8,266 nt of DNA from Candidatus Jordarchaeales archaeon (GCA_038858525.1 JAWCFL010000003.1:1-8266); one strand, 5' to 3'; shown: positions 1-8,266, numbered from the stretch's first letter. A program made the numbers and translations. The notes: generated by a model not told the origin, from the letters alone.

Positions 1-226
1 GCACAAGGTTAAGCTTGCTGTCGATGTCGGGAAGGGAGGCGGCGAGACGGGCAACGACGTCAGCCAGCTGCCCAGGCGACAGCCTATCCGCCGCCCCAAG
101 CACAAGGTTAAGCTTGCTGTCGATGTCGGGAAGGGAGGCGGCGAGACGGGCAACGACGTCAGCCAGCTGCCCAGGCGACAGCCTATCCGCCGCCCCAAGC
201 ACAAGGTTAAGCTTGCTGTCGATGTC
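1..226 (-). repeat. Perfect 99-bp tandem repeat (2 full units plus 28 bp, truncated by window edge), in-frame, encoding LPDIDSKLNLVLGAADRLSPGQLADVVARLAAS
   Basis: Positions 1-99 = 100-198 exactly, and 199-226 = 1-28. The period is 33 codons in the frame of the giant ORF. Confidence 0.97.
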
Positions 227-3200
227 TGGGAGTAGTTTGGCTAGTTCTGGGAGTTTCTCTGCGAGTTGTTCGGGTGCTAGTTTTTCTGCGGCTAGGGTGG
301 CTAGTTCTTTTCTGTATTCTTGTGGTGCGAGTTCTAGTATTTGGGTTATTCTTGGGGTCACGTATTCGATTTTCTCATTTATGACTTCTACTGCCAGCTT
401 GTAGAAGTCGTTGAGTGAGTTTAGCATTTTTAGGTATTGTAGGAGTCCGACTATTTTTTCTGTTGATGGTCTTTCTTTTATCATTTTGCTGAACTCTTCA
501 TAGTCGAACATGCGAAGCCACCCTCTTGAACGGCAGAAGTTGTAATATTGGTTGGCTGCATATTCACTACGTTCATAAAGGTATATAAGGCACTCGGTTC
601 TTATCTTGTCCATTCTTTTTCTTGCATCTCTTTTTTTGGCTTCATTCACCATTGCGGTGTCCGTGAAGGCTAGGGCTAGTGAGTTTCCAGGTTCAACCTT
701 CATTTGTGGGGCGTAGGCGAGGACGAACTTGACGGGCTCCATGCCCTCCACCTTCATTTCCACGAGGTAGTAGCCGTCTTCTTGGGGCTCCGCTAGGCAC
801 GTGAACTTTATCTCAGGTTTTCCCTCATAGGTGAACGTTTTGAGGGGGTTTTCCATGGCGTCCTTGAGTGGGGAGGCGACGATGTTCGTCTCGCATAGGA
901 CAGCTGGGACCATTCTCTCGCCATACTTGCCGTGTCTTCGTTGGGCTATGATCCTCTCGGCTATAGCGATGAACGCCTCTCTATCGGCCAACTTGTCGTC
1001 CACCGATTTTACCTCGAGGAGCATGGGGGAGGGTGGGGGGTTCACTGAGCCAAAATAGGTTTCCATTATGCGTGCTAACGTGTGCCTGAACTGGTTCTCG
1101 CCTTTAGTTATGGCGTCGTAATCCAGCATGGGATATACGAGGTCCGCTATCCTGTACTCTCCCCTCTCATCAACTACTATTCTTACCTCCGCTTTCCCAT
1201 ACTCGTCCGTTAAGATGGGAAGTAGGAAGGTGACCAGCCTCCCCGGCTTCATATCCACATAGCGGGGTTGGGGCTCGGCGGCCCCGGCAACGCTCAGCCC
1301 CGCGGCCTCCAAGCTGCTGTCCCCAGCCCTAACTTCCCGGACGATGCCTAGAGCGCTCTCCGCTTTCTCTGGGGCAACCTTTAGTAGGAAGGCTGTGAGC
1401 CTAACCACGCTCTCACCTGTGACCTTCGTTTCCCGTGTGCTCCTCTTCTCGATGAGCTCGTAGTGGTCGATGATGAAGCCTAGCCCAGCCTTCCTGTATG
1501 GTTCCATGCCGAACTTCCACTTCCCCCCTACAACCTCACTCACATCCTCAACAAGCCTCATGAACTTCTCGTTGTCCACAGTCAGCCTAGTCATCAGAGG
1601 TATGTTGGCTTTTAAGTCCCCTATTTTCGTCGCTACACCATCCTTCACGTCGACAGGCACTGTGAAGACTCTCCACTCCCCGTCGACAGGCGGCTCCACC
1701 CTGTGTGTGGCTTCCCGCCTAACGAGTGCTCTGAGCAGCGTGGTCCTCAACATCTCGTCGTCCATGGCTGCCTCCGTTGGGAGGCCGAGCGTTCTGCAAA
1801 GGCTGTAGAGTTTCTCCGGATTGATGAGGGGGACAATGTATTTCGCCCTTTCTCCGACCTTCTCCACGAGCTCGTCCATTTCCCCCTTGAGACCCATGAC
1901 TCTCCTCGCCAGCTCTTCTCTTCCTCTCAGGATCTCGACGAGTTTCCTCCCACTCCTCGCAGTGTATTGCTTCGCCTCAAGCTTGCCCTCCACCCCCAGC
2001 GCCTTCACGAGCGCCTCAAATGCTTCAGCCGGCATTATCGCCCTCCCCATGAGCATGAGGTACTCTGGCTTGTTTAGCCCGAGCCCCTCCTTGATTTTCA
2101 TCTTGTCTGCTTGTCTCAGCTTGAAGCACGCCTCCAGCACATTTTCCGGGACCGGCCTCCTTGAAAGTAGGACGTCGGGTTTCTCCTTGATGGCGGACGA
2201 CAGTATCTCGGCGGCTTCCCTCGCGCTGAGACCGCTGAGGGCGCTTGTTAGGGCCTTTGCAACACGGGCCACGTCTCCCGCCTTCCTCGCTAGGGCTTCG
2301 AGTACCTCGTCAGTTGTCCCCTTGCCTCTTACCAGCGCATCTAGGACTTGGCGGAGTGGGTGGGCCTCCACTCTCACTTTCACTACCCCTTCGACCGGCG
2401 CTCTCCTATCTGTCCCCGCATCCCTGAACGACGCGGCAAGCCTCTCCGTCCTGTCTGGAGTGAAGTGGGCTGAGAGTATTATTAGCTTGATGAGCCCTTG
2501 GCCGCTGAGCGTCCTCGACTTCCCAGCTAAGTAACTGTACAGCTCCTCGATGCCGCCCTCCTTGATGCTGCTTGACTTTAAATCCATCCGCCTGAAAATG
2601 TCTCTCACAGTCTCGTCGACGAATTTCTTGTCTGTCGGCTCATACCTCCTCCCGAGGTCGGCTATGACATTAATTGTTTTCCCGCCAACGTTCACTCTCC
2701 TAGCGACGAAGCCGTCTACGGACACCATAGCCTCGAAAAGCCTCCACTCCCCCCTGGCGGGGGGCTCGCTCTTCAAAACGGCATGCAGAGCGGTGAGAAT
2801 GGACGCCTTCGCCTTGTCCCGGTCAACCTCAAACCTCGTGAGGCCTAGGAGCCTGCAAACTTCGTCTATCACGTCAGGCCCGGCGATCATGAGAGCATAC
2901 TGAATTGTGGTTCGCGGCGCGCCAATAACGCTGCTAAGCCGCCAGGGATCAAAGCCTTTCTCCATAATCCTCTCGAAGATCTCACTCCTCCCCCTCACAA
3001 TAACGCACCTGCCCGGCCTACCCTTATCAATACTAACCTTACCCCTCAGGTCCTCACCCAGCACGCTGAACATCTTCTCCAGCGCCACTTCCGGGATGCC
3101 ATGAATTCTAGTGAAGAGGTCCCAGAAGCTAACCTTCTCCTTGAGGAGGCTCTTCTCATCATTGCTAAGCTTCCGACACTTATCAGCAACGTAGTCGGGA

Positions 3201-4012
3201 ACAACAACCCCTCTACTAAGGAGACCGGACTTGCTCCACAGTAGCTCCATGGCCTCAGCTAGTTGGGAAGCCCTTAAACCAGGCTGCAGGCCGACATCAC
3301 CAAGCAGGAAAGCCGCCACCCTAGCAGCATACTTGTCAGGGTGGCTCCCAGCAACCTCTCTAAGAACCTCAGTAGCCTCAGCGTCGCCTGCTCCCTCAAG
3401 AAGTTCACGGACAACCCTGAACCCTCCAGGCGTGAGCGGGACGCTGGCTCCACGCTCATCTCCTCCACCAGCACCCGGCAGCCTCGCCTCGCCCCGCTGC
3501 TCTTTGAAGCCTTCAGGGGCCACAGCCAGCCTCCCAGCACCCTCAGCTCCACCTCTCCCGCCCCGCTCAACACCCTCATCAGCCGCCCTCACGGTTGGGC
3601 CAGTGAAGGCGTAGGGTGTGCTCCTCTCAGTATTCGGAGCAGGCCCAGCTTTCTGGCTCTCCGTGGGGTGTGTCGGAGATTTGCCGGCTTCAGTCCTCCC
3701 AGCCTCAGGTTTACCATCAGTCTTCCCTGCTCTTCTCGCTTCGGAGCACTCGTTCGCCGTCAAGTAGTTGTTGAGCGTCCTCACTCCTCCAGCGCCCCTA
3801 GCCTCAAGCTTTGCTCCACATTTCTCCAGCGGGGTCGTAGGTCCTTTTTTAGCCTGCTCCTCCACGCCTTCCTCTTTTTTCTCTGTGGCGCCTTTTTCTT
3901 TCTCGTTCCCCCCATAGTTCACGCTAATAAAGCGGTATAGGCTGTCAAACCCTTTAGCCTTACTCCTCGCTTTATGCTCTCCTCCATATTCGCTCGTTTC
4001 GTTTCCTCTCAT
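2..4012 (-). CDS. Giant multidomain hypothetical protein (>=1337 aa, 3' end beyond window): low-complexity N-terminus, two diverged ~350-aa modules, candidate PD-(D/E)XK nuclease-like domain, C-terminal 33-aa tandem repeats
   Basis: Manual translation of the minus frame (codons starting at positions = 1 mod 3) shows no stop from the TGA at 4073-4075 down to position 2. Candidate starts are ATG 4012 (MRGNETSEY..., preceded by AAGGAGAG) and ATG 4054 (1351 codons). Six + strand ORFs in the track (starting at 15, 831, 1470, 1821, 2550, 2907) and the 3231 ORF all sit in one constant shadow register to this frame. It is missing from the track because it has no stop in the window. Confidence 0.92.
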   Translation of the reverse strand, partial: MRGNETSEYGGEHKARSKAKGFDSLYRFISVNYGGNEKEKGATEKKEEGVEEQAKKGPTTPLEKCGAKLEARGAGGVRTLNNYLTANECSEARRAGKTDGKPEAGRTEAGKSPTHPTESQKAGPAPNTERSTPYAFTGPTVRAADEGVERGGRGGAEGAGRLAVAPEGFKEQRGEARLPGAGGGDERGASVPLTPGGFRVVRELLEGAGDAEATEVLREVAGSHPDKYAARVAAFLLGDVGLQPGLRASQLAEAMELLWSKSGLLSRGVVVPDYVADKCRKLSNDEKSLLKEKVSFWDLFTRIHGIPEVALEKMFSVLGEDLRGKVSIDKGRPGRCVIVRGRSEIFERIMEKGFDPWRLSSVIGAPRTTIQYALMIAGPDVIDEVCRLLGLTRFEVDRDKAKASILTALHAVLKSEPPARGEWRLFEAMVSVDGFVARRVNVGGKTINVIADLGRRYEPTDKKFVDETVRDIFRRMDLKSSSIKEGGIEELYSYLAGKSRTLSGQGLIKLIILSAHFTPDRTERLAASFRDAGTDRRAPVEGVVKVRVEAHPLRQVLDALVRGKGTTDEVLEALARKAGDVARVAKALTSALSGLSAREAAEILSSAIKEKPDVLLSRRPVPENVLEACFKLRQADKMKIKEGLGLNKPEYLMLMGRAIMPAEAFEALVKALGVEGKLEAKQYTARSGRKLVEILRGREELARRVMGLKGEMDELVEKVGERAKYIVPLINPEKLYSLCRTLGLPTEAAMDDEMLRTTLLRALVRREATHRVEPPVDGEWRVFTVPVDVKDGVATKIGDLKANIPLMTRLTVDNEKFMRLVEDVSEVVGGKWKFGMEPYRKAGLGFIIDHYELIEKRSTRETKVTGESVVRLTAFLLKVAPEKAESALGIVREVRAGDSSLEAAGLSVAGAAEPQPRYVDMKPGRLVTFLLPILTDEYGKAEVRIVVDERGEYRIADLVYPMLDYDAITKGENQFRHTLARIMETYFGSVNPPPSPMLLEVKSVDDKLADREAFIAIAERIIAQRRHGKYGERMVPAVLCETNIVASPLKDAMENPLKTFTYEGKPEIKFTCLAEPQEDGYYLVEMKVEGMEPVKFVLAYAPQMKVEPGNSLALAFTDTAMVNEAKKRDARKRMDKIRTECLIYLYERSEYAANQYYNFCRSRGWLRMFDYEEFSKMIKERPSTEKIVGLLQYLKMLNSLNDFYKLAVEVINEKIEYVTPRITQILELAPQEYRKELATLAAEKLAPEQLAEKLPELAKLLPDIDSKLNLVLGAADRLSPGQLADVVARLAASLPDIDSKLNLVLGAADRLSPGQLADVVARLAASLPDIDSKLNLV
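880..1230 (-). other. Candidate PD-(D/E)XK (restriction-endonuclease-like) domain within the giant ORF
   Basis: KAEVRIVVDERGEYRIADLVY ... PMLLEVKSVDD ... IIAQRRHGKY ... VPAVLCET. E at 1187-1189, D at 1142-1144, E-x-K at 1013-1015/1007-1009. The D-to-E spacing (43 aa) is longer than usual. Confidence 0.45.
1340..3430 (-). repeat. Diverged internal tandem duplication of a ~350-aa module (protein level only)
   Basis: LLSRGVVVPDYVADKCRKL..EK..LKE matches LLSRRPVPENVLEACFKL..DK..IKE (offset 351 aa). SEPPARGEWRLF matches VEPPVDGEWRVF (offset 357 aa). VCRLLGL matches LCRTLGL. Boundaries are approximate. Confidence 0.8.
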
Positions 4013-4044
4013 TTTTGTCTTCTCTCCTTCTTGGTTTTCACGTT

Positions 4045-4064
4045 TTTGGAACATGTGTTCCAAA
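4045..4064. promoter_or_regulatory. 20-bp inverted repeat TTTGGAACA-TG-TGTTCCAAA, possible operator at the 5' end of the giant gene
   Basis: 9-bp perfect arms with a 2-bp spacer. It covers ATG 4054 and lies 32 nt upstream of ATG 4012. Confidence 0.45.
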
Positions 4065-4099: not shown

Positions 4100-4474
4100 T
4101 CACCCCTTCATTCCTTCTTCACCCATCTTTTCGAGGTCCTCCGCCGCTTTTATCATCCACCCCGCGTTCACGGTGAGCGCTACCGGGATTGTCACTCCCT
4201 TACTGAGGATGACATTTATGAGTGTGACTTCTCCCTCCTCTGCAGCTCTCCTCATCCATTCTGAGACGTATTTGTGTTGTGGGAATGTCGCGACAGGCGC
4301 ACTTTTCGGGTCTCCGAGCGCCACGAGAAGGGCTGGGGGCTGCGACGCCACTGCGAACGCCACCCTGTCTGCTCCCTCCCCCTCATCCCAGACTGCGATT
4401 ACTGCGGGTGAGCCCTTGACTGTTAGAAGGTCGGCCACTCTCAGCTTTTTCTCGCTCACGTCCTCTACCTCCAT
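4100..4474 (-). CDS. Hypothetical protein (124 aa, MEVEDVSEKK...GEEGMKG)
   Basis: The track ORF is 4100..4537. The internal ATG at 4474 overlaps the upstream stop (4465-4467) by 10 nt, which fits translational coupling. The 21-aa extension lies over the upstream gene's zinc-finger codons and is less likely. Confidence 0.75.
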   Translation of the reverse strand: MEVEDVSEKKLRVADLLTVKGSPAVIAVWDEGEGADRVAFAVASQPPALLVALGDPKSAPVATFPQHKYVSEWMRRAAEEGEVTLINVILSKGVTIPVALTVNAGWMIKAAEDLEKMGEEGMKG

Positions 4475-5193
4475 CCGCTGTACGCCTGTCTTACCTCCGA
4501 CGCGTGCACGCACTTGTGGCTCCTGCACGTCATGCACACTACAGCCTTCCCATACCTTGTATCGAACGAGAGTACTTCCGCCCTGTCAACGTCCACCTCC
4601 CTGTAGTCTAGGAGTGAGGGCGCGACTTCTAGGGCGAAGGCTGTCAGCTCCACTGGTAGCCTTATGTCCTTGTAGGCATCGCTGACCGCGAATGTGAGTG
4701 CTGTCTCGACGAGCAACGCCACGTGGCTGCACGCCTCCTCCGGTCTCTCAGGGGACACATAGCTCTTGCACGTGTCGCAGTAGACGAAGCCTCTAACCTC
4801 GCCGTTAAAGGGGTCGTCCGACCTCATAGGCCCCCTCATCACGCACAGGCCATATATGAACGGGAGCCTGAACGGTGACAGTTTGCCGCAGCACGTGAGG
4901 ACTATGAGTTTAAGCGCACTGTCCTCGAAGCCGCTGACCTCGTAGCTCACAGCGTAGCCTCCCCCGGCCAGCTTGGAGAGAAGCTCAACGGAAGTCAATT
5001 TGACCGTCGCGTATTCCTCGTTCTCGTCAACGTTGAAGAGGCGATCCACGGCAACCTTAAGCCTACTCTCCGGGAGGAGTGACTCATCCATCAGCCTTAG
5101 AAGATTAACCCTAAATCCCTCACGAGCCGCCATAAAAGCCCTGGCAACGTCCTCCAGCTCGTCAAGCGATAATTCTTCATCTCTACTCAACAT
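4465..5193 (-). CDS. Hypothetical protein with two SWIM-like CxxC...CxH zinc-finger motifs (242 aa)
   Basis: C139-x2-C142-x12-C155-x-H157 (CDTC...ACSHVALL) and C220-x2-C223-x4-C228-x-H230 (CMTCRSHKCVH). AGGAGG lies upstream of ATG 5193, and the gene overlaps the upstream gene by 7 nt. Confidence 0.85.
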   Translation of the reverse strand: MLSRDEELSLDELEDVARAFMAAREGFRVNLLRLMDESLLPESRLKVAVDRLFNVDENEEYATVKLTSVELLSKLAGGGYAVSYEVSGFEDSALKLIVLTCCGKLSPFRLPFIYGLCVMRGPMRSDDPFNGEVRGFVYCDTCKSYVSPERPEEACSHVALLVETALTFAVSDAYKDIRLPVELTAFALEVAPSLLDYREVDVDRAEVLSFDTRYGKAVVCMTCRSHKCVHASEVRQAYSGWR

Positions 5194-5492
5194 CTCATCC
5201 TCCTGAGCTCCTCGCCGCTCGGAGCACTCCTCTTAACCAGTGGGGCGACGACCTGGACAGGCTCGTAGTCCTTGTGGTGCACCCCTGGAGGGGTGACTAT
5301 AGCCCAGCCTAAGCCCATCCTCGTTATCCAGCGTGCAACCATCCTGTGGTCCCAGCTTGGGTCCCTTAGGACCTGCCTGGTCACGAGTTCGACGTCTTGG
5401 CCCTGAGTCTCAGCTAGCCTAAGAACAGCCTTGAACGGGGTGTTTCCGAGCACGTCTGGGGGCAGCTTCGATGGCGTTTGGCTTATCGCCAT
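5187..5492 (-). CDS. Hypothetical protein (101 aa), first gene of the cluster
   Basis: ATG start, codon usage like its neighbours (AGG, CTA, GTC), stop overlapping the next gene's start, and located downstream of an archaeal TATA box. No family recognised. Confidence 0.7.
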   Translation of the reverse strand: MAISQTPSKLPPDVLGNTPFKAVLRLAETQGQDVELVTRQVLRDPSWDHRMVARWITRMGLGWAIVTPPGVHHKDYEPVQVVAPLVKRSAPSGEELRRMRC

Positions 5493-5631
5493 GAGGTGTA
5501 TCCCGTAGCTTCTACCCTTTAAGGAAAGACCAACGCAAAGCTGATCCCCCTAAGAGTGATTTTTTGAGTGATTGCGGTCCGGGTTTTGAGGAACGTGTGG
5601 CCCAACACGCCCATAATTGGTGGGCACGAAC

Positions 5632-5648
5632 ATTTATATAAATTTTTT
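5632..5648 (-). promoter_or_regulatory. Putative archaeal promoter: A-rich BRE-like tract plus TTTATATA box
   Basis: The minus strand reads AAAAAA-TTTATATAAAT inside the most AT-rich patch of the region, pointing toward the four-gene cluster. 5632-5643 is a perfect palindrome (ATTTATATAAAT). Confidence 0.55.
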
Positions 5649-5756
5649 GTTAAAAGAATAACTAATTTTTTACAATGTGCTGTCCACTACCAAACGAAGC
5701 CATAGCTTCCTACACGCTTCCTTCCAGACACACGCCGCCAGCCAACACGCCCACAC

Positions 5757-5833
5757 TAAAACCAACAAAAAATAATAAAAACCTAACGGAAAACAACAAA
5801 AACAAAAACAAACAAAACCAACAAAACAAAAAG
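5757..5833 (+). repeat. Low-complexity A/C-rich tract (AAAC/AAAAC-like units; T/G-rich on the minus strand)
   Basis: Sequence such as aaaacaacaaaaacaaaaacaaacaaaaccaacaaaacaaaaag. It could serve as an oligo-U terminator zone for minus-strand read-through (inference). Confidence 0.7.
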
Positions 5834-6134
5834 TATAACACTACAGCCGAATTCCCCACAAAAATTTTCTCAAAAGTCATCCACCTACACAGTCAAATGA
5901 GGAGTGCTGTTAGAGAGCAAGGCGTTCCTAAAAAAGTAAGCCGGCAGCCGAAAACGCCAGGCAGACCCACACTCCAACCTACAGCTCTGAGAAAACTGAT
6001 TCGAAGCAACCATCAAAACCTTCCCTAAAATGGCAGATTAGGGTGTCCTACACCTCCCACTCAAGGCTCAACCCAGCAGTCCCAAATCATCCGCCATCAA
6101 CCCACAACAGCTCAAATTAAAACTAGACTAGACC

Positions 6135-6149
6135 AACACAAAAAAGAAG
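6135..6149 (-). terminator. Putative oligo-T archaeal terminator after the surface-protein pseudogene
   Basis: CTTCTTTTTTGTGTT on the minus strand, 17 nt after the TAA at 6167-6169. Confidence 0.4.
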
Positions 6150-6166
6150 TTAATGTTCCCCGCCGG

Positions 6167-7240
6167 TTAAGTCCTGCGCAAGCGATAATAGATGACTGTT
6201 ACTACTACGAAAGCAACAACGGCGGCGAGCACCGCAGGGCTGAAAAGCGAGGACATAACCACTTGCTGAAGCGATAGGAGCAGGAGAACTTCTGGCAGCG
6301 GTGTTATTGTGACGTTTTCGGTGTGCATTGTTGATGCTATTGTTTTGGTTATTTTGACCCCGTTGTAGTAGATTTTGATCTCCGTGTTTTTTCTCGTGAA
6401 GGTTTCTTTGCCCGTGAAGGCACCGCGCTGAACAATTATCCATCGCTTGGCCGTTTTCGTCCGTCGCCGCGTTTACCCCGCCGTAGTGGGGCGTAGCATA
6501 AATGGCGTGCCATCAGTCGCCAGAGGACGCCAACCTCGCTCACCGGGCTACCGAGCTCATCAACAACCCCCAAGCGAACATACACCAGTACACGGCTACC
6601 AGTGAAGTCATTCTCCTTACCCGTCCACACAAACCCCCAGAGCAGTTTAAGGCAACACATCCACGGACAACACTAAAGGACCCATACACAGCAAAGCCAT
6701 AGTCATTATCCACCTCAACAGTACCTATAAGAACATTACTACCCGAGGAGTCCAGGTAGAAGTTGCAGTTTTCCGCAGCGTTGCCCATAAAGCTACTGCT
6801 GTTCGAGCGATACAGGTAGAAGCCGTAGTAGTAGGAGCCACTACAGTTTGCCGCAGTATTGCTTTGTAGTGTTACGTTTACGCTGTAAGTAATTTTGAAG
6901 GCGGTGGTCCAGTTTGTGGCTTTCAGGTTCTTTACCGTCACGCTGGTCCTTCCATCGACCACCACTCCCTCATAGCTTCCTGAGCCTATTAGGTAGTGTC
7001 CGTTTCCATCTATCACTATGTGGTCAGCAGCAACAATGAGCTGTGTCTGTACATGTCCTCGTTGAGTGTGTAGTCGCTTGTGACAATTATTGTTTGGAGC
7101 TTCACCTGCGCCTGCTGGGACTGCTGAGCCAGCGAACAGGAGAACAGAAGGGAGGGGGCGAGGGGGCGAGGGGGCGAACGCCAAAACCGAGAGCACGGCT
7201 GAAAGCACGGCAACGGCAGCAACTAACCCCTCAACTTCAC
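6167..7240 (-). pseudogene. Frameshifted cell-surface protein gene: signal peptide, NosD/CASH-type right-handed parallel beta-helix, beta-sandwich-like segment, C-terminal TM anchor
   Basis: Fragments in alternating frames join into one coherent protein: MKLRG/LVAAVAVLSAVLSVLAFAP...; TIIVTSDYTLNEDMY; LIVAADHIVIDGNGHYLIG...YGFYLYRSNSSSFMGN...FYLDSSGSNVLIG...NDYGF; VYVRLGVVDELGSPVSEVGV; YGGVNAATDENGQA; IIVQ...PAVLAAVVAFVVVTVIYYRLRRT*. Inferred shifts are near 7228, 7094 (or the 8-mer repeat), 7048, 6636, 6515 and 6441. Confidence 0.85.
7150..7176 (+). repeat. (AGGGGGCG)x3 8-mer microsatellite; also matches a G-quadruplex pattern
   Basis: AGGGGGCG at 7153-7160, 7161-7168 and 7169-7176, preceded by GGG at 7150-7152, giving GGG-A-G5-CGA-G5-CGA-G5. 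Confidence 0.85.
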
Positions 7241-7473
7241 ACCCAAACACTCCCTCAACAACGTTAACAAGAGATTAGCAAAAACGACAAGAAAATGTTA
7301 CCTTGGTGAACATGGACGCCGTAGCACGTATGCTGATGCCGCCTGAGGCCGCACTCCTTCGGGGAGCATCATTAGCCGGCTTGCTGCTCGGGCGCTGACT
7401 AGGCAAGGAAGGGGGCGGGGCTGCGCCTTGGCAGCAGGCAAAACTAGCAAAACGAGAAGGACGAAGTGAGAGT

Positions 7474-7486
7474 AAACAAATAAAAA
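7474..7486 (-). terminator. Possible T-rich terminator downstream of tfb
   Basis: TTTTTATTTGTTT on the minus strand, about 50 nt past the tfb stop. Confidence 0.3.
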
Positions 7487-7534
7487 TGGGTTTTGAGGGT
7501 TTCCTGCACCGTTTTTTGCAAGTTTATGCTTAAA

Positions 7535-8266
7535 TTAAACTTCGACTTCTAAGCCGAGTTTTTTAACGAGTTCCTTGTACCTGTTCCTTATCGTGACCTC
7601 TGTGACGTGCGACGTCTCCGCTATTTCTCTCTGCGCCCTTCGTTCTCCCGTTAGTATGCCTGCTATGTATAGGGCTGCTGCCGCCATGCCTGTCGGGTCT
7701 TTTCCTCCGGTTATGCCGAGCTGCTTCGCCTTGCTAAGTATTTCGAGCGCCTTTGACGTTGTTTTTGGTGGAAGCTTGAGCTCCGCTGCAAACCTCGGGA
7801 TGAAGTCCGCCGCGTTCGGCCTCGGCGATTTAAGCTGCAACCCTCTCAAGATCAGCCTTATGCAGTGGGCTAGCTCTTTCCTGTTCACCCTCGCCGTGTG
7901 CTCAATCTCATCCAGCGGTCTCGGAACCTTGTGCTCTCTGCAGGCTAGATATACCGACGCCGCCACCATCGACTCTATCGATCTTCCCCTCACCAGTCCA
8001 TTCTCGAGCGCTCTCCTATATATGTAGGCCGCCGTCTCCCTTATCTCCCTTGGCACCCCAATCTGGCTTGCGATCCTGTTCAGCTCGGGCATAGCTTGAG
8101 CTAAATTCCTATCTTCCGAGGAATGCACTCTTGTCCTGACCTGCCATTTTCTTATCCTGTAGATTTGTGCTCTTCTTCTTGGGGATATTTTTCTTCCGTA
8201 GGCGTCGCGGTCGCTTCTGCTTATTGTTGTGCTTAGTCCTCTGTCTGGCATTCTTAGTGTTAGTGG
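7535..8266 (-). CDS. tfb: Transcription initiation factor IIB (archaeal TFB), 5'-truncated by the window
   Basis: Hallmark motifs: DRGLSTTI, RIRKWQ..R, ERNL-type (EDRNLAQA), GLVRGRSIESMVAASVYLACR, GKDPTGMAAAALYIA, and C-terminal VTEVTIRNRYKEL. The frame stays open upstream of ATG 8251 (PLTLR-MPDRG), and the N-terminal zinc ribbon is missing, so the true start is outside the window. Confidence 0.98.
   Translation of the reverse strand, partial: PLTLRMPDRGLSTTISRSDRDAYGRKISPRRRAQIYRIRKWQVRTRVHSSEDRNLAQAMPELNRIASQIGVPREIRETAAYIYRRALENGLVRGRSIESMVAASVYLACREHKVPRPLDEIEHTARVNRKELAHCIRLILRGLQLKSPRPNAADFIPRFAAELKLPPKTTSKALEILSKAKQLGITGGKDPTGMAAAALYIAGILTGERRAQREIAETSHVTEVTIRNRYKELVKKLGLEVEV

What the first reader, a model, noticed from the sequence alone, without database searches (positions are those of the whole stretch)
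2..4012. Hidden giant protein combining a candidate nuclease domain with an array of 33-aa helical repeats
Seen: an uninterrupted ORF of at least 1337 aa, missed by the ORF track, with the order [low-complexity N-terminus]-[module A]-[module A']-[E..D..ExK motif]-[helical linker]-[33-aa repeats x >=2.3, open-ended]. Known: 33-35-aa two-helix repeat solenoids (TALE, PPR, mTERF, TPR) can bind nucleic acids or proteins modularly, and PD-(D/E)XK folds are DNA-cleaving domains. Inference: this may be a natural repeat-array-targeted nuclease or effector in an archaeon, an architecture I do not recognise from any named family.
Basis: partly seen in the sequence, partly recalled or inferred. Interest (0 to 1): 0.78.

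Follow-up and report, generated by a model that had tools for sequence, protein, structure and literature searches.

The report
Orphan Asgard HTH–nuclease–repeat protein
A real protein of about 1,360–1,400 residues, found only in a few hot-spring Asgard archaea (Jordarchaeales), combines two DNA-binding-like modules, a probable restriction-endonuclease-type domain and a short acidic helical repeat tail; it is the last gene of a small ATPase-led accessory cassette that is decaying in this genome, and it is not a TALE-like programmable nuclease.

Summary
Window 2..4012(-) is one open frame of 1337 aa from ATG 4012, cut by the contig start inside a 99-bp tandem repeat. Sister assemblies complete it at 1362-1395 aa, so the array is short: a degenerate unit, 1 to at least 4 identical 33-aa units, a divergent unit and a 19-aa cap.

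The domain order is confirmed:
- a disordered N-terminus;
- a duplicated ~340-aa basic module containing a Cro/XRE-like HTH;
- an alpha/beta domain with E..D..ExK invariant in four divergent copies;
- a linker and an acidic alpha-solenoid.

The family occurs only in Jordarchaeales: 8 hits in 1.84 billion proteins, and 1 of 400 Asgard genomes (the window's own). The gene ends a four-gene cassette (HerA-like ATPase, Zn protein, 126-aa protein, this protein) in a ~7-kb island between two convergent TFB genes. That island is missing at the same site in a same-genus genome. Here the ATPase is reduced to its last ~100 aa, and a sister strain carries real frameshifts.

Best reading: the HTH-guided nuclease effector of a nuclease-NTPase conflict cassette. 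The TALE-like reading is not supported.

The parts
2..4012 (-). CDS of the large protein. It is partial: 1337 aa from ATG 4012, with the C-terminal 25-58+ aa lying beyond the contig start. Alternative upstream starts are ATG 4054 and TTG 4063.
3413..4012 (-). Disordered, low-complexity N-terminus (aa 1-200). It carries two L-x-x-[FY]-[LVI] motifs at 3911-3955 (KGFDSLYRFISVNYG) and 3746-3790 (GGVRTLNNYLTANEC), which are PIP-box-like.
   Evidence: The PCNA test gave weak support only.
2348..3400 (-). Module A (aa 205-555, pI 9.1): helical head, Cro/XRE-like HTH, five-stranded beta unit and further HTH-like helices.
1319..2335 (-). Module A' (aa 560-898, pI 9.2), an ancient tandem duplicate of module A.
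638..1264 (-). Probable PD-(D/E)XK nuclease domain (aa 917-1125, pI 5.0). Candidate catalytic residues: D957 (1142-1144), E1000 (1013-1015), K1002 (1007-1009). A conserved E949 lies at 1166-1168.
281..637 (-). Helical linker (aa 1126-1244) with one TPR/PPR-like hairpin. It is conserved in all paralogues.
2..280 (-). 33-aa helix-turn-helix repeats (alpha-solenoid): degenerate R0 at 182-280, canonical R1 at 83-181, canonical R2 (partial) at 2-82. The 99-bp DNA units are 99% identical and caused the assembly break.
4100..4537 (-). Cassette gene 3: a small orphan protein, orthologue of the 126-aa protein in L014 (56% identity). The true start is probably near 4489.
4465..5193 (-). Cassette gene 2: a 242-aa orphan protein with two CxxC...CxH (SWIM-like) motifs, orthologue of the 232-aa protein in L014 (52% identity). 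It is found only in Jordarchaeales.
5187..5519 (-). Remnant of cassette gene 1. Only the last ~100 aa of a 741-aa HerA/FtsK-type (DUF87) ATPase survive (83% identity to L014); the 5' three quarters are gone.
5520..7534 (.). Rest of the strain-specific island: a low-GC, A-rich stretch (5500-6500) and a beta-helix (NosD-like) ORF at 6540-7250(-).
7535..8266 (-). TFB paralogue 1, the conserved left flank of the island. The right flank, a convergent TFB paralogue 2, lies beyond the contig start and is seen in L012.

Best explanation
The gene encodes a lineage-restricted (Jordarchaeales) multidomain DNA-acting protein.

Proposed roles of the parts:
- Two basic, duplicated modules, each containing a Cro/XRE-like helix-turn-helix, bind DNA (inferred).
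- A divergent PD-(D/E)XK domain with conserved E..D..ExK cleaves DNA. The fold class is supported; activity is inferred.
- An acidic C-terminal alpha-solenoid, built of strain-variable identical 33-aa repeats, serves protein-protein contact such as self-assembly, partner docking or target sensing (inferred).
- The disordered N-terminus carries conserved short docking motifs, possibly for PCNA (weak).

The protein is the terminal gene of a four-gene, tightly packed cassette led by a HerA/FtsK-type ATPase. It therefore most likely works as the nuclease effector of a nuclease-NTPase conflict system, either antiviral defence or mobile-element warfare. The nearest analogy is HerA-DUF4297.

In this genome the cassette sits in a ~7-kb variable island and is decaying. 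The ATPase is truncated, and sister strains carry frameshifts in the nuclease gene and in the Zn-protein gene.
For: Anatomy:
- The ORF, the duplication and the conserved motif are confirmed.
- The domain model has a core pLDDT of 70-90 and an alpha-beta-beta-(helical insert)-beta-alpha-beta order. D957 lies on beta2 and E1000-x-K1002 at the end of beta3.

Fold:
- The ESM Atlas search returns Rpn/YhgA (Transposase_31), DUF2887 and Replic_Relax families at TM 0.36-0.45.
- The module A model (pLDDT 79.7) has an XRE-like HTH sub-part. Modules A and A' have pI 9.1-9.2; the repeats have pI 4.9.

Cassette:
- The orthologue locus L014 has DUF87 ATPase, then 232-aa, 126-aa and (81-aa) proteins, then the 1405-aa protein.
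- The window's ORFs match these at 52-83% identity.
- The ATPase hits PADLOC HerA models (5e-16) and NCBIfam CedD (1.7e-16) and HerA_antiphage (5.6e-9).

Accessory nature:
- Not found in three same-genus genomes.
- Found in 1 of 400 Asgard genomes.
- An empty site exists in G001: the TFB1-TFB2 gap is 0.9 kb, against 7.9 kb here.
- The orthologous cassette lies at a different chromosomal place.

Decay:
- The ATPase is truncated.
- The frameshifted allele is reproduced in an independent 72x run.
- pN/pS is about 0.9, from 26 nonsynonymous and 9 synonymous changes.
- Paralogues on C2 and C1 carry in-frame stops.

Precedent: HerA activates a Cap4-like nuclease by complex assembly (PMC11291478), and complex formation is general in nuclease-NTPase systems (bioRxiv 10.1101/2025.07.10.664194).
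Against: - No sequence-level membership in any nuclease or defence family.
- Foldseek found nothing significant.
- The alignment behind the model has only four sequences, and the model's mean pLDDT is 63.6.
- The 43-aa helical insert between D and ExK is atypical.
- Active-site geometry could not be inspected, because no coordinates were available.
- The cassette link rests on two lineages only. Neighbours of the paralogues are unknown.
- No defence phenotype or neighbouring known defence genes are shown.
- The ATPase equally resembles DNA-transfer ATPases (CedD, CedB, VirB4-like).
- In this genome the partner ATPase is absent, so the protein either acts alone or is on its way out.
Confidence: 0.5

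Rival explanations
1. It is a DNA-processing protein of a decayed integrated mobile element, involved in transfer, replication initiation or recombination. The HerA/FtsK/CedD-like ATPase would translocate DNA. The HTH-nuclease protein would nick or recombine the element's DNA, like Rpn/YhgA or Replic_Relax proteins, rather than attack invaders.
For: - The Atlas fold neighbours include Rpn family recombination-promoting nuclease (Transposase_31) and Replic_Relax.
- The ATPase scores as well on CedD, CedB and conjugative ATPase models as on HerA defence models and on phage FtsK/terminase PHROGs.
- A membrane protein lies upstream in L014.
- The island is strain-specific, sits at different sites in two lineages, and has three paralogues in one genome.
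Against: - No integrase, relaxase, replication or capsid gene, and no terminal repeats, in or around the island.
- No relatives on IMG/VR viral contigs with the close-relative scan.
- No plasmid or virus family match.
Confidence: 0.25
2. It is a non-catalytic DNA-binding scaffold or regulator. The PD-(D/E)XK-like domain would be a degenerate fold used for DNA or protein binding, and the protein would act through its HTH modules and solenoid only.
For: - The insert between D and ExK is atypically long.
- The fold scores are modest.
- Purifying selection between close strains is not evident.
- Inactive PD-(D/E)XK domains are common (own knowledge).
Against: The ExK triad is invariant across copies of 18-29% identity, including the degraded C1 copy. 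E..D is invariant in the three longer copies, and an Asp is present on beta2 in all four by eye. That is the pattern expected of a retained active site.
Confidence: 0.15
3. This is the first reader's reading: a natural repeat-array-targeted nuclease, in which the 33-aa repeats read nucleic-acid sequence modularly (TALE/PPR-like) and direct the nuclease.
For: - The period of 33 aa and the two-helix units are as in such proteins.
- The first half-unit 'L[ST]P[EG]QLA' superficially recalls the TALE 'LTPEQVVAIA' (own recollection, not tested).
- The profile of the C-terminal region hits designed PPR proteins.
Against: - The units are identical at protein and DNA level, so there is no variable specificity position.
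- There are only 1 to at least 4 canonical units, varying between strains.
- The array is acidic, pI 4.9, net -1 per unit.
- The PPR hit is an artefact of ten identical target repeats, each at about 9 bits and i-E 5-8. No natural PPR, TALE or Pfam PPR/TPR model is matched significantly.
Confidence: 0.03
4. It is a chromosomal, PCNA-tethered repair or replication-associated nuclease of the host (a housekeeping role).
For: - Conserved L-x-x-[FY]-[LVI] motifs lie in the disordered N-termini of four family members.
- The PCNA-peptide test gave weak support. Score 0.35, best control 0.01. The mark was reached by 51 of 78 solved complexes and 2 of 108 mismatched pairs, but at 0.60 or under by only 5 of the 78 and by all 4 mismatches that passed. 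Partner pLDDT was at least 43, and the runs agree in at least 66% of contacts.
- NucS, a PCNA-bound archaeal nuclease, is among the fold hits.
Against: - Absent from same-genus genomes and from 399 other Asgard genomes.
- Island-borne and pseudogenised in sister strains.
- The motif pattern was defined post hoc.
- PIP-PCNA complexes are abundantly solved, so the weak pass may come from memory.
Confidence: 0.05

Closest known systems
HerA-DUF4297 anti-phage system (Cap4-like nuclease plus HerA hexamer; PMC11291478) and nuclease-NTPase defence systems in general (bioRxiv 10.1101/2025.07.10.664194)
   Same: - The location is accessory and island-borne.
   Different: - No sequence match to DUF4297, or to any PADLOC model, for the large protein.
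- Two further orphan genes lie between the ATPase and the nuclease.
- The nuclease protein is about three times larger, with two HTH-bearing modules, an IDR and a repeat solenoid.
- The ATPase has a Ser-rich N-terminal region.
- It is archaeal and confined to one Asgard order.
- Complex formation is untested.
Stand-alone PD-(D/E)XK nucleases of archaea and defence systems (NucS/EndoMS 2vld, HamA of Hachiman 8zue, LmuA of Lamassu 9ux8, Card1/Can2, McrC)
   Same: - Predicted alpha-beta-beta-beta-alpha-beta core with Asp on beta2 and ExK on beta3.
- The acidic and Lys residues are conserved across paralogues.
   Different: - There is a ~30-aa helical insert between beta2 and beta3.
- There is no family-level sequence signal.
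Alpha-solenoid repeat proteins
   Same: - Period of 33 aa with helix-turn-helix units.
- Weak profile similarity to designed PPR, DHR and alphaRep solenoids.
   Different: - No significant match to any natural repeat family or Pfam repeat model.
- The units are identical, few and acidic, so there is no code-bearing variable residue.
Cro/C1 (XRE)-type HTH DNA-binding domains (C.EcoT38IS 2ef8, HigA, HipB, Aca1/Aca10)
   Different: - The scores are weak.
- The ~340-aa module as a whole has no structural analogue in PDB or the Atlas.

Membership tests
PD-(D/E)XK (restriction-endonuclease-like) superfamily | Core alpha-beta-beta-beta-alpha-beta fold | tested here: inconclusive
   - The model (mean pLDDT 63.6, core 70-90) has this order of elements, with a helical insert.
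- Foldseek found nothing significant.
- The Atlas gave PD-(D/E)XK families at TM 0.36-0.45.
PD-(D/E)XK (restriction-endonuclease-like) superfamily | Conserved Asp on beta2 and (D/E)xK on beta3, with an optional Glu upstream | tested here: met
   - E1000-x-K1002 is invariant in four copies.
- An Asp is present on beta2 in all four by eye (D957 here), with a one-residue register shift between copies.
- E949 is invariant in the three-sequence alignment.
- The positions fall on strands E49-59 and E91-98 of the model.
PD-(D/E)XK (restriction-endonuclease-like) superfamily | Metal-dependent phosphodiester cleavage | not testable with these tools
   This needs a biochemical assay.
DUF4297/Cap4-type nuclease of HerA-DUF4297 | Sequence membership in DUF4297 / PADLOC models | tested here: not met
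   No Pfam hit at E up to 1 and no PADLOC hit at E up to 0.1.
DUF4297/Cap4-type nuclease of HerA-DUF4297 | Adjacent HerA-type ATPase gene | tested here: met
   - In the orthologue locus L014 the HerA-like ATPase is in the same cassette, separated by 2-3 small genes.
- In the window only its last ~100 aa remain.
DUF4297/Cap4-type nuclease of HerA-DUF4297 | Physical complex with the HerA hexamer that activates the nuclease | not tested
TALE / TALE-like repeat DNA binders | Array of 33-35-aa repeats with hypervariable base-specifying residues | tested here: not met
   The canonical units are identical at DNA and protein level.
TALE / TALE-like repeat DNA binders | Basic or neutral superhelical groove that wraps DNA | tested here: not met
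   The repeat region has pI 4.9 and net charge -4. The fold itself was not modelled.
PPR (pentatricopeptide repeat) proteins | Significant match of individual repeats to PPR models | tested here: not met
   - Per-unit scores are about 9 bits, i-E 5-8. The summed E of 1e-22 arises from ten identical designed repeats hitting one query hairpin.
- No Pfam PPR model hit.
PIP-box PCNA clients | Q-x-x-[LIM]-x-x-[FY]-[FYWL] motif that binds PCNA | tested here: inconclusive
   - The motifs have L-x-x-[FY]-[LVI] but lack the Gln.
- Complex prediction gave weak support only: 0.35 against a best control of 0.01, with the caveats given.

The most novel reading that the evidence does not exclude
This is the effector of a previously undescribed, Asgard-specific four-gene conflict system: a HerA-like ATPase, a SWIM-like Zn protein, a 126-aa protein and an HTH-guided PD-(D/E)XK nuclease. 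The copy-number-variable identical repeats would form a rapidly evolving sensor or assembly surface. The N-terminal PIP-like motifs would tether the nuclease to PCNA, so that it acts on replicating (foreign) DNA.
Probability: 0.15. Interest if true: 0.65.

Novelty: new variant of a known kind. Interest (0 to 1): 0.42.

Why it matters
If the reading holds, this would be an archaeal, Asgard-restricted version of the nuclease-NTPase theme. It uses entirely new accessory parts: a ~340-aa duplicated HTH module with no structural analogue, a Zn protein and a small orphan protein. It would add to the still thin catalogue of Asgard conflict systems.

The strain-variable, DNA-identical 33-aa repeats and the mix of intact, frameshifted and truncated copies in hot-spring populations give a natural series for studying the gain and loss of such a system.

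The practical value is limited. The family is tiny, the host is uncultured, and the copy in this window has lost its ATPase partner.

Tried and rejected
- Sequence families. Pfam, NCBIfam, PHROGs, PADLOC and PDB sequence searches of the whole protein and its domains gave nothing above noise.
- Homologue searches. The word-indexed searches returned only the protein itself or fragments of the family. The ESM Atlas feature search gave no usable hit.
- Foldseek against PDB. For the nuclease model it returned only tyrosine phosphatases at E above 0.008. I treat these as noise; no Cys-X5-Arg motif was looked for. For module A it returned nothing. The Atlas shape search for module A gave TM below 0.3.
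- PPR lead. Rejected as score inflation.
- P0010. The idea that this relative, which has module A but a different C-terminus, carries a LAGLIDADG domain found no Pfam or NCBIfam support.
- Context of P0010 and P0006. Their contigs are too short.
- Island boundaries. I searched for island-flanking direct or inverted repeats and for mobility genes; none is convincing.
- Other collections. Single-protein scans of IMG/VR and GTDB representatives found no relatives.
- Expression. The metatranscriptome run X13 holds pieces of a ~95%-identical variant, but these are contigs in an RNA library, so transcription is not shown.

Full report
**1. Observation**

The window is the first 8266 bases of contig C3 of a 2.09-Mb, 63-contig genome. 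On the minus strand, 2..4063 is open for 1354 codons and runs off the contig start. Translation from ATG 4012, which is preceded by an AAGGAG-like box, is letter for letter the 1337-aa partial protein on record for a 120,104-nt contig (P0024). Cluster members are named 'Candidatus Jordarchaeales archaeon', so the host is an Asgard archaeon from hot springs.

Tandem Repeats Finder reports a 99-bp unit at 1-231, 2.3 copies, 99% matches. These are the 33-aa repeats, and they sit exactly at the contig edge, which explains the assembly break.

The array is not open-ended:
- P0018 (1362 aa) and P0021 (1395 aa) are complete versions of the same protein. They end with a divergent unit and a 19-aa cap (...HVKGLLKAMYLV).
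- The number of canonical units is 1, 2 or at least 3-4, depending on the assembly.

**2. Anatomy** (P0021 numbering; window coordinates are given in the parts list)

- aa 1-200: low-complexity and disordered.
- aa 205-555 and 560-898: an ancient tandem duplication (29.5% identity, E 1e-13). Each copy has pI 9.1-9.2.
- aa 917-1125: an acidic alpha/beta domain.
- aa 1126-1244: a helical linker.
- aa 1245 to the end: the repeats, pI 4.9.

**3. The candidate nuclease**

Four divergent copies of the domain (18-29% identity) were aligned. The ExK triad (E1000, K1002) and the following Asp are invariant. The upstream Glu (E949) and an Asp are invariant in the three-sequence alignment. An Asp is present on beta2 in all four copies by eye, with a one-residue register shift.

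The model has mean pLDDT 63.6 and a core of 70-90. Its element order is helix, beta1, beta2 (carrying D957), a ~30-aa helical insert, beta3 (ending in E1000-V-K1002), helix, beta4.

Fold searches:
- Foldseek against PDB found nothing significant.
- The Atlas shape search returned Rpn/YhgA, DUF2887 and Replic_Relax families at TM 0.36-0.45.

**4. The repeats**

A profile of the C-terminal region from six family members hit designed PPR proteins at E 1e-22. The alignments show ten identical target repeats, each matching one query hairpin at about 9 bits (i-E 5-8), so the total is inflated. No natural repeat family or Pfam repeat model matches.

The canonical units are identical at DNA level, few in number, variable between strains and net acidic. 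These properties fit a protein-contact solenoid and do not fit a TALE/PPR-type reader of nucleic-acid sequence.

**5. Distribution**

- An exhaustive phmmer search over 1.84 billion representative proteins found 8 hits, all of them Jordarchaeales proteins or fragments.
- The domain profile matched only the window's own genome among 400 Asgard genomes. There it occurs three times: the C3 copy; a C2 paralogue at a contig end with an in-frame TAG, where a sister sequence has Glu; and a short C1 copy interrupted by TAA that lacks the HTH modules.
- Three same-genus genomes lack it with this query. One of them is 95% complete in 8 contigs.

**6. Context**

The 45%-identical orthologue P0030 (1405 aa) lies in locus L014. 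It follows a 741-aa DUF87 ATPase and proteins of 232, 126 and 81 aa, and is followed by the thermosome gene.

The window's ORFs correspond to these as follows:
- 4465-5193 matches the 232-aa protein (52% identity, E 3e-83). It has two CxxC...CxH motifs.
- 4100-4537 matches the 126-aa protein (56% identity).
- 5187-5492 matches only the last 97 aa of the ATPase (83.5% identity). The rest of the ATPase is absent.

The ATPase matches PADLOC HerA models (5e-16) and NCBIfam CedD (1.7e-16), HerA_antiphage (5.6e-9) and a Ser-rich family, the last below its cut-off.

L012, a sister MAG 99% identical to the window, supplies the missing downstream side: a convergent second TFB gene, then NUDIX, DUF2148, HIT and TnpB.

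In same-genus genome G001 the same flanks (SCP2, a 146-aa gene, TFB1, TFB2, NUDIX, DUF2148, HIT) lie on one contig, with only 0.9 kb between the two TFB genes. The gap is 7.9 kb here. The cassette therefore occupies a strain-specific island. No integrase or terminal repeats were found.

**7. State of the gene**

- L012 differs from the window by 35 substitutions (26 nonsynonymous, 9 synonymous; pN/pS 0.89) and by three frameshifting indels.
- The same indels, plus one in the Zn-protein gene, appear in a contig of an independent run at 72x depth. They are therefore real strain variants.
- A 2017 run from another study carries the intact form.
- A metatranscriptome holds pieces of a ~95%-identical variant. 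This does not prove transcription.

Over the longer term, two 1400-aa orthologues at 45% identity keep all domains, which implies past constraint.

**8. N-terminal motifs**

The pattern L-[DEN]-x-[FY]-[LVI] occurs 1-3 times in the disordered N-termini of four family members, for example KPSLDRYLKAEAG three times in P0030. That is 8 hits in about 630 aa, against about 0.2 expected. The pattern was defined after seeing the motifs.

Its spacing is that of Q-less archaeal PIP boxes (own knowledge). A complex prediction of the genome's PCNA with aa 60-104 gave 'weak support':
- Score 0.35, best control 0.01.
- The mark was reached by 51 of 78 solved complexes and 2 of 108 mismatched pairs.
- At 0.60 or under, it was reached by only 5 of those 78 solved complexes and by all 4 mismatches that passed.
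- Partner pLDDT was at least 43, and the runs agree in at least 66% of contacts.
- PIP-PCNA complexes are abundantly solved, so the pass may come from memory.

This remains a lead only.

**9. Interpretation**

The best-supported reading is an accessory, HTH-guided PD-(D/E)XK nuclease that serves as the effector of a HerA-type ATPase cassette. This is a nuclease-NTPase conflict system. Its nearest described analogue is HerA-DUF4297, in which assembly on the HerA hexamer activates a Cap4-like nuclease (PMC11291478). Complex formation is a general feature of such systems (bioRxiv 10.1101/2025.07.10.664194).

Membership in DUF4297 fails at sequence level. The architecture (two novel modules, IDR, solenoid, two extra orphan genes) is new.

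The main rival is a DNA-processing role in a decayed mobile element, because the ATPase resembles CedD/VirB4-type translocases equally well and Rpn and Replic_Relax families are among the fold neighbours. The TALE-like reading is disfavoured.

The earlier notes of this scan on the same window describe the same repeats, motif, duplication and four-gene cluster. They are first-reader notes, not independent evidence.

Noticed in passing
window 5187-5519 (-): The 101-aa ORF is not a gene of its own. It is the C-terminal stump of a 741-aa HerA/FtsK-type (DUF87) ATPase that is intact in the orthologous locus L014. The 5' part was lost next to a low-GC, A-rich stretch (5500-6500).
   Followed up: yes
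window 7535-8266 (-) and L012:10766-11701: Two convergent TFB paralogues (62% identical) bracket the island. In same-genus genome G001 they are only 0.9 kb apart, so the space between them is a variable hotspot.
   Followed up: partly
G000:C2:120673-123348 (-) (L007/L010): A paralogue with the same architecture ends contig C2 in a poly-G/C run. It carries an in-frame TAG exactly where a near-identical sister sequence (P0009) has Glu. Its repeats are a different 37-aa unit in three near-identical copies, so the repeats expanded independently.
   Followed up: partly
G000:C1:74290-75638 (-) (L003/L011): This is a third, short copy: N-terminal motif, nuclease-like domain, TAA, then linker plus repeats. 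It has no HTH modules and lies next to a KaiC/RecA-like P-loop ATPase gene (72356-73783).
   Followed up: no
P0010 / L015 (GCA_054386335.1, 3.3-kb contig): A 1076-aa relative has one module A followed by an unrelated ~380-aa C-terminus with two LAGLIDADG-like strings (GLGGIAGYYLSDA, AAIVGDGNV). No Pfam or NCBIfam support was found, and it was not folded.
   Followed up: partly
window 6540-7250 (-): A 236-aa ORF with an N-terminal hydrophobic segment and a right-handed beta-helix (Beta_helix 4.4e-8, NosD 2.6e-7) lies inside the island. It is broken into small calls in the sister MAG L012.
   Followed up: no
window 3746-3955 (-) and N-termini of P0030, P0006 and the C1 copy: A repeated short motif, [small/basic]-L-[DEN]-x-[FY]-[LVI], occurs in otherwise unalignable disordered N-termini. 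In P0030 it sits in a 47-aa unit repeated three times. It is a possible PCNA-docking (PIP-like) motif, and the prediction gave weak support only.
   Followed up: partly
L012:14563-15735: A TnpB/Cas12f-like (MJ0013, Cas12f1-like_TNB) gene lies ~4 kb beyond the island in the sister MAG. It is missing at that place in G001.
   Followed up: no
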